From IMG/VR virus record IMGVR_UViG_3300045988_129198: a stretch of DNA of 32,670 nucleotides. One strand, written 5' to 3'. The DNA comes from a virus. Taxonomy: Duplodnaviria > Heunggongvirae > Uroviricota > Caudoviricetes. This document shows positions 14,073 to 16,810 of the stretch, in pieces. The notes under the pieces were generated by a model. That model was given only the letters and a program-made list of their open reading frames with translations, had not been told where the DNA came from and searched no databases. Both the position numbers and the translations under genes were made by a program. The number at the start of each line of letters is the position of its first letter. Position 1 is the stretch's first letter.

Positions 14073-14420
14073 TCAACTCACAGGGATGGTTAACGAAAGT
14101 GGCTGGCCGGTGTCGTTGTGCTGACCGGTTAACGTGACCGTCATTCGCCCGTCAAAACTGCGCTCAGTGGTGACGGATGACAGGGTGACGCGGGGTTCCC
14201 ATTTCAGCACCGCCATGTAACAGGCGACCTTAATCTGCAACTCAAGCGCCGGAGTCTGCGGCTGGTCAATCATTGACGCCAGCAACGAGCCGTAATCACG
14301 ACGCATCACCCGCGAGCCGACCGGTGTGCGCAGGATATCGCCGATACTCTGGCTGATATGCTCAAGGTCAGTGACAGTCAGGCCATCACTGCGATTCATT
14401 CCGAGATAACGCGCAGTCAT
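14073..14420 (-). CDS. W: Baseplate wedge protein gpW
   Basis: 115 aa; P2 gpW size and position. Confidence 0.9.
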   Translation of the reverse strand: MTARYLGMNRSDGLTVTDLEHISQSIGDILRTPVGSRVMRRDYGSLLASMIDQPQTPALELQIKVACYMAVLKWEPRVTLSSVTTERSFDGRMTVTLTGQHNDTGQPLSLTIPVS

Positions 14421-15052
14421 AGAGGTCCCCCGGTTGTGCCGCCGCTGTCGCCGGGGTGTTTATGGGTATGCAGTACCTTACCGTTTGATGAGAGTTCACC
14501 GCCGGTGTGTTCAATGTTGCCGCGCATCGTCCCGCCCTTCTGTACTTCCAGCGTGCCGGTAATCAGTCTGTTGGTGCAGACCACCTCCGGGGTGTCCAGG
14601 GTGATGCGGGTTGACGCTTTCACCATGACTACCGGCACCGTGGCGGTAACAGAATCAGAAGCCGTCACGCTGGCCGTTTTAATTCCGCTTACCATCAGTG
14701 CACTGGTTTCAGGTTCATACTCAATCACCGCCCCGTCAGGGAAACGTATGTGCAGGGCATCCGCCGACGCAGACGGCGGAGGGTTATCGCCGGAATAAAT
14801 CCCCGGCAGAACGAACGCCGTGTCGAGTTCACCGCCCACGGCCAGAATCAGCACCTGTTCCCCCACGGAAGGTGCCCACCATGTGCGTGAACGTCCGGCA
14901 CGATGGGTCAGCCACTGAAGCCAGTCGGTGCACATGCCGCCGGTCTGCACACGGCAGCGACCGGCGTTAAGGTCGGTTTCGACGATAATGCCGGGGCGTA
15001 TCATGTTGCGCAGTGCGCGCGCGAGTTCCTGGATATTTGCGAGTGTTTTCAT
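14417..15052 (-). CDS. V: Baseplate spike protein gpV
   Basis: 211 aa from the ATG at 15050-15052 (MKTLANIQELARALRNMI...), the P2 gpV length; the track ORF extends upstream to a TTG. Confidence 0.9.
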   Translation of the reverse strand: MKTLANIQELARALRNMIRPGIIVETDLNAGRCRVQTGGMCTDWLQWLTHRAGRSRTWWAPSVGEQVLILAVGGELDTAFVLPGIYSGDNPPPSASADALHIRFPDGAVIEYEPETSALMVSGIKTASVTASDSVTATVPVVMVKASTRITLDTPEVVCTNRLITGTLEVQKGGTMRGNIEHTGGELSSNGKVLHTHKHPGDSGGTTGGPL

Positions 15053-15109
15053 AAGATCTAGCATGCTGCTGAGAACTGATGAGAACAATAAAAGAGTGTT
15101 TTTCTAAGG

Positions 15110-15142
15110 TTGACACAACACTCCATTTGAAGTGAATATAAT
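15110..15142 (+). promoter_or_regulatory. Putative sigma70-type promoter for the RelA/SpoT-like gene
   Basis: TTGACA at 15110-15115 and TATAAT at 15137-15142; the 21-nt spacing is non-optimal, so the call is tentative. Confidence 0.3.
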
Positions 15143-15185
15143 GATTACTTAACTGGCAAAAAAACATCCTCACTAATTGGAGCCA

Positions 15186-16277
15186 ATGGATACACGCATG
15201 TCAGACATTCTAATTACTTATGATGAACGGAAAGATAAATTTGAGTCCTATGCCCTTACTCTTAAATCGTTATTAACCACGTTAATTCGCAATGAAAAAA
15301 TTTCAATTCACTCACTTGAATCAAGAGTTAAAACAAAAAAAAGCCTTGAAGGTAAGATTAATAAAAAGGGAAAATACAAGTCTATAGATGATATTACTGA
15401 TATCGTTGGTATCAGGATCATCACACATTATGCTGATGATGTTGATAAGATAGCTGCTATAGTTGAAAAGGAGTTCACCATTGACCAAGAGAACTCTATT
15501 GATAAAAGAACCTCAATTGCGCCTGATAAATTTGGTTACCTATCACTTCATTATATAGTAACTTTAAACTCAACCAGAACAAACTTAAAAGAATATGAAG
15601 TATATAAAAACATCAAAGCCGAATTACAAATACGATCAATCCTTCAGCATGCCTGGGCGGAGATTGAACACGACATTGGTTATAAGTCGGCCACAGGACT
15701 GCCTAATGAAATAAGAAGATACTTTTCACGCTTAGCTGGTCTTTTAGAAATGGCCGATGATGAATTTATTAAAATCAGAAAAAAGATTTCTGAACGGCAG
15801 AAAGAGGTTGCAAAAGAACTAGAGCAAGGAACTAGTGATTCAGTTTTAGATATTTTCACTTTGGATGAGTTCTTAAACACAAGTCGAATTATGAGTGAAC
15901 TTTCAGAAGAGATAAAAGAAAAAACAGGAATCACAGTACATGGCCGATACAAGGATAAAGATTTGGGATACCTACTAAATGGTTTAAACCTAGCCAACAT
16001 AACTACAATAGAACAACTCAATCAAAAACTCTCACAAATGAAAAAGCAGATCGTAGATAGAATATTCTGCTTCGGAGAACCATTTATTAATTATTGCAGA
16101 GAAACCCCCATGCCAAAAGAAGCTCTTTTGAGTTATTTATGTCAAATTATCGTTGCGTTTCAAAACTCACCTTCGTTAGAATCTGAATTTAATAACAAAG
16201 CAGGTTTAAATCTGAAAAACAGCAATATCTCCGATTTTTTCTCGAATATAAGAGAAAACATAAGCACACAACCTTAG
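15186..16277 (+). CDS. RelA/SpoT-domain nucleotidyltransferase (toxSAS), candidate fused toxin-antitoxin of CapRel type
   Basis: Synthetase-domain signatures SRVKTKKSLEGKI...DIVGIRIITHYADD and ELQIRSILQHAWAEIEHDIGYK. About 363 aa with a C-terminal domain of about 150 aa with no recognisable motif. Start is ambiguous (TTG 15177, ATG 15186 or ATG 15198). AT-rich, on the opposite strand to the flanking late genes, at the P2 orf30 position. Confidence 0.8.
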   Translation: MDTRMSDILITYDERKDKFESYALTLKSLLTTLIRNEKISIHSLESRVKTKKSLEGKINKKGKYKSIDDITDIVGIRIITHYADDVDKIAAIVEKEFTIDQENSIDKRTSIAPDKFGYLSLHYIVTLNSTRTNLKEYEVYKNIKAELQIRSILQHAWAEIEHDIGYKSATGLPNEIRRYFSRLAGLLEMADDEFIKIRKKISERQKEVAKELEQGTSDSVLDIFTLDEFLNTSRIMSELSEEIKEKTGITVHGRYKDKDLGYLLNGLNLANITTIEQLNQKLSQMKKQIVDRIFCFGEPFINYCRETPMPKEALLSYLCQIIVAFQNSPSLESEFNNKAGLNLKNSNISDFFSNIRENISTQP

Positions 16278-16307
16278 CTTTAGTTTTAACGTATTCTAAC
16301 AGAAGAC

Positions 16308-16333
16308 TGCTGCCGGTAAGCACCGGCAGCAGC
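16308..16333. terminator. Hairpin between the convergent RelA/SpoT-like gene and S
   Basis: Stem CTGCTGCCGGT / ACCGGCAGCAG with 4-nt loop; only a modest U-tract on either strand. Confidence 0.45.
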
Positions 16334-16357
16334 GATGAGGTGTCGGGAATGGCACAA

Positions 16358-16810
16358 CTAACGCTCAAGGTGAGCCAGGATAATCTCTTCAATCATCTGC
16401 ACATCCTCACCGGTAAAGCCGAGCAGAGGACGCGCCGGATAATCAATTTTCTTACCGTCTTTCCGGGTTTCTTCCGACAGACCGAACTGATGCACACTGG
16501 CGATTTTCGGTGACTTTCCGCCGTAAAACTCCATTGATGCCTGTTCTGGGCTGGCGCGGATATGCAAAAAACGACTGGTGATAAGTTTCGCAAACATTTT
16601 TCGCTTAACACGACCGGTCTTTTTTCTGGCGCTCTGCTGCTGGCGTGGTGCGTAGGGTGTGCCGTCCGGGGCTTTCTGTGCCATCACCCGGCACTGCTGA
16701 CTCTGCCGCAGATGTTTCGCCAGTTCGGTGCTCAGTCGCCGACGCCCTGATGGTGACAGTGATTCAATCAGCCCGGTCAGCCGGTCTTCAAAACGCTTAA
16801 ACTCATTCAT
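16358..16810 (-). CDS. S: Tail completion protein gpS
   Basis: 150 aa; P2 gpS size and position. Confidence 0.9.
   Translation of the reverse strand: MNEFKRFEDRLTGLIESLSPSGRRRLSTELAKHLRQSQQCRVMAQKAPDGTPYAPRQQQSARKKTGRVKRKMFAKLITSRFLHIRASPEQASMEFYGGKSPKIASVHQFGLSEETRKDGKKIDYPARPLLGFTGEDVQMIEEIILAHLER

What the first reader, a model, noticed from the sequence alone, without database searches (positions are those of the whole stretch)
15089..16357. RelA/SpoT (toxSAS)-domain protein with a C-terminal extension at the orf30 site: CapRel-like fused toxin-antitoxin candidate
A 366-aa protein carries clear RelA/SpoT synthetase signatures in its N-terminal half and a C-terminal region of about 150 aa with no recognisable motif. 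The gene is AT-rich, on the opposite strand to the surrounding late genes, and has its own promoter-like TTGACA/TATAAT elements. CapRel-type proteins are single-chain toxin-antitoxins in which the C-terminal domain senses a phage structural protein and releases a tRNA-pyrophosphorylating toxSAS domain. Size and architecture fit. It is notable that a prophage carries a sensor that could in principle respond to capsid proteins of competing phages.
Basis: partly seen in the sequence, partly recalled or inferred. Interest (0 to 1): 0.6.

Follow-up and report, generated by a model that had tools for sequence, protein, structure and literature searches.

The report
Prophage alarmone-synthetase gene with unknown sensor domain

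Summary
A 359-aa protein (ATG 15198; 366 aa from TTG 15177) is encoded alone, on the opposite strand, in a 1.27-kb AT-rich insert between P2 gpV and gpS. Residues 1-168 are a RelA/SpoT synthetase with every catalytic and ATP-site residue invariant. A 40-residue helix leads to an all-alpha 147-residue C-terminal domain.

The CapRel assignment fails. The catalytic domain is far closer to the alarmone synthetases RelQ/RelP (E 1e-15 to 1e-18) than to CapRel (E 0.03-0.2). The C-terminal domain has no beta-sheet pseudo-zinc-finger, no YXXY plug and no profile similarity to CapRel. The protein is acidic where CapRel is strongly basic. The authors who defined capRel and gRel left the single extra RSH of E. 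coli S88 unplaced ('divRel'); this gene, 99.9% identical in S88, is inferred to be that protein. It is not a PANGU operon either, because no partner gene is conserved in 80 loci.

It belongs to a large uncharacterised family (phrog_9640, at least 592 species) found in prophages and genomic islands. It has occupied the P2 gpV/gpS slot across six genera. There its C-terminal domain diverges much faster than its catalytic domain or the flanking phage genes.

Most likely it is a phage-triggered alarmone synthetase that causes growth arrest. This is a new variant of a known kind, and the function is untested.

The parts
15089..16357 (.). AT-rich cargo insert between P2 gpV and gpS (the orf30 slot)
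   Evidence: GC 0.34-0.35 against 0.56-0.60 in the flanks. It is bounded by gpV 14417..15088 (-) and gpS 16358..16810 (-). The same slot is occupied by homologues in Cronobacter, Klebsiella, Serratia, Pantoea and Yersinia prophages.
15198..16277 (+). Coding sequence, 359 aa plus stop (the alternative upstream TTG 15177 would give 366 aa)
   Evidence: ORF list. RefSeq start in E. coli S88. Homologues start at the equivalent Met. Full-length match to phrog_9640 at E=1.9e-200, labelled 'unknown function'.
15198..15701 (+). RelA/SpoT synthetase (SAS-type) catalytic domain, residues 1-168. Invariant residues are R43 and K45 (ATP), D68 (Mg, 15399-15401), R73, Y114 in the G-loop GYLSLHY (15537-15539), E142 (15621-15623) and H158.
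   Evidence: Pfam PF04607 E=1.9e-21. Invariant columns in a 105-sequence alignment. They correspond to SaRelP R78/K80/S84/K88/D107/R112/Y151/E174/H190 named in PMC5794853. AF2 pLDDT ~90. Foldseek top hits are RelQ/RelP.
15702..15833 (+). Long alpha-helical linker (residues 169-212; model helix 170-210), equivalent to the C-terminal oligomerisation helix region of RelQ/RelP
   Evidence: AF2 secondary structure. HMMER and Foldseek alignments to RelQ/RelP run through about residue 210. Conserved RxFSRLAGLLExADxEF motif.
15834..16274 (+). C-terminal all-alpha domain (residues 213-359, nine helices). The fold has no detected relative and is fast-evolving. Proposed sensor or regulatory domain.
15110..15142 (+). 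Promoter-like hexamers TTGACA (15110-15115) and TATAAT (15137-15142) with a non-canonical 21-nt spacer. The alternative -10 is GAATAT (15134-15139) at 18 nt.
   Evidence: Sequence read. Not called by the consensus scan. The block TTGACACAACA...GAATATAA is conserved in the three closest loci, and CACAACA is invariant in six. Function is not shown, and the region must also hold the divergent gpV late promoter.
16306..16333 (.). GC-rich 12-bp-stem hairpin between the convergent 3' ends of the cargo gene and gpS
   Evidence: Terminator-like site reported on the minus strand. It lies 29 nt after the cargo stop codon. There is no T-run on the plus strand.

Best explanation
The gene encodes a stand-alone, prophage-borne effector of the small-alarmone-synthetase type. 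Its catalytic domain is a RelQ/RelP-like pyrophosphokinase that takes pyrophosphate from ATP. The most likely acceptor is a purine nucleotide, giving (p)ppGpp and/or (p)ppApp, rather than tRNA. The enzyme is normally held inactive and is switched on through its C-terminal helical domain, which acts as the specificity or sensor module. The resulting alarmone burst and NTP drain arrest the infected lysogen and block a superinfecting phage (abortive infection or exclusion) to the benefit of the resident P2-like prophage.

The long linker helix corresponds to the oligomerisation helices of RelQ/RelP. Control through a change of oligomeric state, as shown for the GRel enzyme Pag1B, is therefore at least as plausible as CapRel-style folding of the C-terminal domain over the ATP site.

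Shown here: intact catalytic site; three-part architecture; absence of any partner gene; phage and island context; rapid evolution of the C-terminal domain. Inferred: the acceptor substrate, the trigger, the mode of autoinhibition and the defence phenotype.
For: Catalysis. All donor-site and catalytic residues are invariant across 105 homologues and map onto the RelP residues listed in PMC5794853.

Nucleotide rather than tRNA acceptor. RelQ/RelP are by far the closest characterised enzymes. No tRNA-modifying toxSAS structure other than a marginal CapRel core hit appears at E<=10. The protein is acidic or neutral (net -2; family median -5) against +18 for CapRel. The GRel enzyme with the same layout makes pppGpp and does not label tRNA. 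Basic residues K103, R104 and K111 flank the G-loop, as expected for a 5'-phosphate patch (criterion from PMC11782079).

Single-gene unit. Only this gene lies in the insert. No neighbour family is shared by more than 6 of 80 loci. No Rfam or tandem-repeat element is present.

Defence-type context. The gene occupies the same gpV/gpS slot in P2-like prophages of six genera. It is on 60 IMG/VR viral contigs, 12 of them P2-type. It also occurs in a mycobacterial prophage and a Vibrio filamentous phage. Bacillus and Pseudomonas copies sit beside integrase, Abi_C, McrBC, RES and AAA_15 genes. The gene is at least 5 GC points below its flanks in 51 of 77 loci. There is a PADLOC candidate hit, PDC-S33, at 1e-16 over the catalytic part. 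The same prophage carries defence-type cargo in its two other variable slots.

Sensor role of the C-terminal domain. It is confidently folded and always attached to this synthetase. It shows 25-41% identity where the catalytic domain and gpV/gpJ are 57-82%. Its dN is 2.6-3.9 times that of the catalytic domain. In the one unsaturated pair it has 6 non-synonymous and 2 synonymous changes against 1 and 7.
Against: No experiment exists for any member of this family in the literature searched, so defence is inferred from context only. The substrate call rests on similarity and bulk charge, not on a modelled active site. dN/dS in the C-terminal domain stays below 1 (0.14-0.75), so faster evolution may be relaxed constraint rather than an arms race, and the Fisher test rests on 16 substitutions (p=0.04). 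Long co-divergence with the P2 backbone is unusual for defence cargo, which typically turns over quickly (PMC13586616). One of 14 E. coli copies is a pseudogene. The inter-domain geometry of the model (pTM 0.69) could not be inspected, so cis-autoinhibition and oligomeric control cannot be told apart.
Confidence: 0.45

Rival explanations
1. CapRel-like fused toxin-antitoxin. [quoted passage not shown] The freed N-terminal domain then pyrophosphorylates tRNA 3' ends and stops translation.
For: The gross design matches: one ~360-aa chain, an N-terminal RelA/SpoT synthetase, a variable C-terminal domain, no separate antitoxin, and carriage on a temperate phage. The catalytic cores are homologous (hhalign 88.8%). 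CapRel's sensor domain is also its least conserved part (PMC9712102).
Against: Three defining CapRel features were tested and not met. The C-terminal domain is all-alpha rather than a beta-sheet pseudo-ZFD. There is no conserved YXXY plug. The C-terminal-domain profile matches CapRel with 0.2% probability. The catalytic domain is 13-15 orders of magnitude closer in E-value to RelQ/RelP. The protein is acidic whereas CapRel is net +18. The extra RSH of E. coli S88 was classed divRel, not capRel.
Confidence: 0.2
2. Orphan PANGU-type effector. Like the GRel enzyme Pag1B, it rests as an inactive homotetramer and is activated when a nucleoid-associated protein binds the C-terminal domain. Here that would be the host's own YejK, released when an invading phage degrades the chromosome. 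The enzyme then makes pppGpp.
For: [quoted passage not shown] The closest solved relatives are tetrameric. In PANGU the isolated synthetase is not toxic and the partner is an activator. The C-terminal domain here is mildly acidic (net -4, pI 5.0). Enterobacterial hosts carry YejK (stated in the preprint).
Against: The defining two-gene operon is absent. There is no NAP gene in the insert or next to any of the 80 genome loci or 9 annotated loci. C-terminal-domain charge in the family ranges from -16 to +8, so it is not a consistent DNA mimic. The S88 protein was classed divRel, not gRel. No Pag1B sequence or structure (9UFP) was available to compare.
Confidence: 0.12
3. Lysogenic-conversion gene rather than immunity. 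A regulated alarmone synthetase adjusts host (p)ppGpp levels to favour stress tolerance, persistence or maintenance of lysogeny, with the C-terminal domain sensing a host metabolite or protein.
For: Its nearest characterised relatives are housekeeping stress-response enzymes. Its long co-divergence with the phage backbone looks more like a stably useful accessory gene than fast-cycling defence cargo. Relatives of the catalytic domain with other C-termini sit in conserved chromosomal synteny in Streptococcus.
Against: Members carrying this C-terminal domain are found in prophages, viral contigs and islands beside Abi, McrBC and RES genes, and are compositionally foreign. Very fast divergence of the C-terminal domain is hard to explain by sensing a conserved host molecule. 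The gene is patchy, present in 14 of 5,426 complete E. coli genomes.
Confidence: 0.15

Closest known systems
RelQ/RelP (SAS1/SAS2) small alarmone synthetases of Bacillota (PDB 5DEC, 5DED, 6EWZ, 6FGK, 2BE3)
   Same: These are the closest by sequence (E 1e-15; profile 3e-18) and by fold (Foldseek E 5e-10, TM 0.77 over ~200 aa). The match includes the N-terminal helix and the long C-terminal helix that build the RelQ/RelP tetramer. All ATP-site and catalytic residues are shared.
   Different: RelQ/RelP are ~210-230 aa single-domain housekeeping enzymes. This protein adds a 147-aa helical domain, is phage or island cargo, and replaces the G-loop arginine (GYRSYH) with leucine (GYLSLHY).
CapRel-SJ46 fused toxSAS toxin-antitoxin (PDB 7ZTB; PMC9712102)
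   Same: A single ~360-370-aa chain carried on a temperate phage, with an N-terminal RelA/SpoT-type synthetase and a variable C-terminal domain.
   Different: Only ~130 core residues align, at 25% identity. The C-terminal domain is unrelated: all-alpha against a beta-sheet pseudo-ZFD, hhalign 0.2%. There is no YXXY motif. The protein is acidic against net +18. CapRel targets tRNA, and here a nucleotide acceptor is favoured.
PANGU type I: GRel toxSAS Pag1B with YejK-like NAP Pag1A (bioRxiv 10.64898/2026.04.06.716658)
   Same: [quoted passage not shown] It has anti-phage context. Pag1B makes pppGpp, not tRNA-PP, and is regulated through its C-terminal domain and oligomeric state.
   Different: PANGU is an obligate two-gene operon, whereas this family has no conserved neighbour. 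The S88 protein was classed divRel, not gRel. The C-terminal domain is not consistently acidic. Direct comparison was not possible.
Bicistronic toxSAS toxin-antitoxin modules (FaRel, FaRel2, PhRel, PhRel2; PMC7229694, PMC11782079) and mycobacteriophage Phrann gp29/gp30
   Same: RelA/SpoT-fold growth-arresting enzymes, several of them prophage-borne and used for exclusion of other phages.
   Different: Those have an adjacent antitoxin or SAH gene, and none is present here. FaRel2 and Tas1 structures are not detected by the family profile at E<=10.

Membership tests
RelA/SpoT homologue (RSH) superfamily, synthetase-only (SAS) class | SYNTH domain (Pfam PF04607) above the curated threshold, with no hydrolase domain | tested here: met
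   PF04607 at 76.9 bits against a cut-off of 27; no other domain.
RelA/SpoT homologue (RSH) superfamily, synthetase-only (SAS) class | Catalytic and ATP-site residues: R/K of beta1, Mg-binding Asp, second adenine-stacking Arg, G-loop Tyr, catalytic Glu | tested here: met
   R43, K45, D68, R73, Y114, E142 and H158 are invariant in 105 sequences. They were mapped to SaRelP residues from PMC5794853.
CapRel (fused toxSAS toxin-antitoxin) | Catalytic domain belongs to the CapRel subfamily | tested here: not met
   7ZTB scores E=0.2 (single sequence) and 0.03 (profile, 51 aa), against 1e-15 to 3e-18 for RelQ/RelP. The extra RSH of S88 is listed as divRel.
CapRel (fused toxSAS toxin-antitoxin) | C-terminal pseudo-zinc-finger domain: a three-stranded antiparallel beta-sheet plus helix | tested here: not met
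CapRel (fused toxSAS toxin-antitoxin) | Conserved C-terminal YXXY motif that plugs the ATP site | tested here: not met
   There is none in the query C-terminal domain. Only 31 of 105 members have any YxxY there, and never at a shared column. CapRel has YPNY at 352.
CapRel (fused toxSAS toxin-antitoxin) | Toxin and antitoxin fused in one open reading frame, with no separate antitoxin gene | tested here: met
   It is the single gene in the insert, and no neighbour is conserved.
CapRel (fused toxSAS toxin-antitoxin) | Pyrophosphorylates tRNA 3' ends; the N-terminal fragment alone is toxic; activated by direct binding of a phage protein | not testable with these tools
   This needs biochemistry and genetics. 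Indirect indicators (acidic protein, proximity to RelQ/RelP) argue against tRNA binding.
PANGU type I (GRel Pag1B + NAP Pag1A) | Bicistronic operon with a YejK-like nucleoid-associated protein gene | tested here: not met
   No second gene lies in 15089-16357. There is no NAP or any shared neighbour in 80 genome loci or in 9 Pfam-annotated loci.
PANGU type I (GRel Pag1B + NAP Pag1A) | Synthetase, helical linker and C-terminal partner-binding domain | tested here: met
   AF2 model: core 1-160, helix 170-210, helical domain 219-356.
PANGU type I (GRel Pag1B + NAP Pag1A) | Acidic, DNA-mimicking C-terminal (DMK) domain homologous to that of Pag1B | tested here: inconclusive
   Net charge is -4 (pI 5.0), but the family spans -16 to +8. 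Pag1B and 9UFP were not available for comparison.
PANGU type I (GRel Pag1B + NAP Pag1A) | Catalytic domain in the gRel subfamily | tested here: not met
   The 2011 RSH census lists the S88 protein as divRel, while gRel is assigned to other genomes.
RelQ/RelP housekeeping SAS | Single-domain ~210-230-aa protein forming a homotetramer through its N- and C-terminal helices | tested here: inconclusive
   The equivalent helices are present and superpose, but the protein carries an extra 147-aa domain. Oligomeric state cannot be determined here.
Type II toxSAS toxin-antitoxin modules | Adjacent, often overlapping, antitoxin or SAH gene | tested here: not met
   No such gene is present, and there is no RNA or repeat candidate.

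The most novel reading that the evidence does not exclude
This is the E. coli representative of a large, experimentally untouched family: at least 592 species across nine phyla and 844 clusters at 50% identity. Its members would be single-protein immune sensors in which a previously undescribed all-alpha domain gates a RelQ/RelP-like alarmone synthetase. That would be a third, independent way, after CapRel and PANGU, in which RelA/SpoT enzymes have been wired to phage sensing. The gpV/gpS (orf30) slot of P2-like phages would then be a defence locus with a long-term resident rather than a fast-turnover hotspot.
Probability: 0.35. Interest if true: 0.7.

Novelty: new variant of a known kind. Interest (0 to 1): 0.5.

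Why it matters
RelA/SpoT-fold enzymes are emerging as anti-phage effectors, but only two regulatory designs are understood: CapRel's pseudo-zinc-finger plug and PANGU's NAP activator. This family combines the catalytic domain closest to true (p)ppGpp synthetases with a sensor domain of unknown fold, and it needs no partner gene. It is widespread in prophages and islands. If active in defence, it would show a new trigger-recognition module and would test whether alarmone bursts alone can abort infection. It would also add the P2 gpV/gpS slot to the known old/tin and Z/fun cargo sites. On the practical side, current annotation ('GTP pyrophosphokinase', phrog 'unknown function') and defence finders do not flag it, apart from a partial PADLOC candidate hit.

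Tried and rejected
- CapRel membership was rejected on sequence, fold, motif, charge and published classification.
- A PANGU two-gene system was rejected because no neighbour is conserved.
- A hidden protein antitoxin in the insert was rejected. The only other ORFs there are antisense, inside the gene, and are not called in any homologous locus.
- An RNA antitoxin or repeat array was rejected. Rfam gives only a chance mir-651 hit at 29 bits against a gathering score of 106, and TRF gives only a 2-copy 10-mer inside gpV.
- The C-terminal domain is not a portable module on other effectors. Apart from one 511-aa protein without Pfam domains, all hits are the same architecture or truncated gene calls.
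- A canonical sigma-70 promoter is not supported, because the spacer is 21 nt.
- Positive selection is not demonstrated. Omega is below 1 everywhere and synonymous sites are saturated in most pairs.
- Retrieving the 2020 RSH subfamily tables and the RelP structure paper failed because they are not held.
- A Pag1B sequence could not be obtained. No accession is given in the preprint, and 9UFP is not in the PDB copies.
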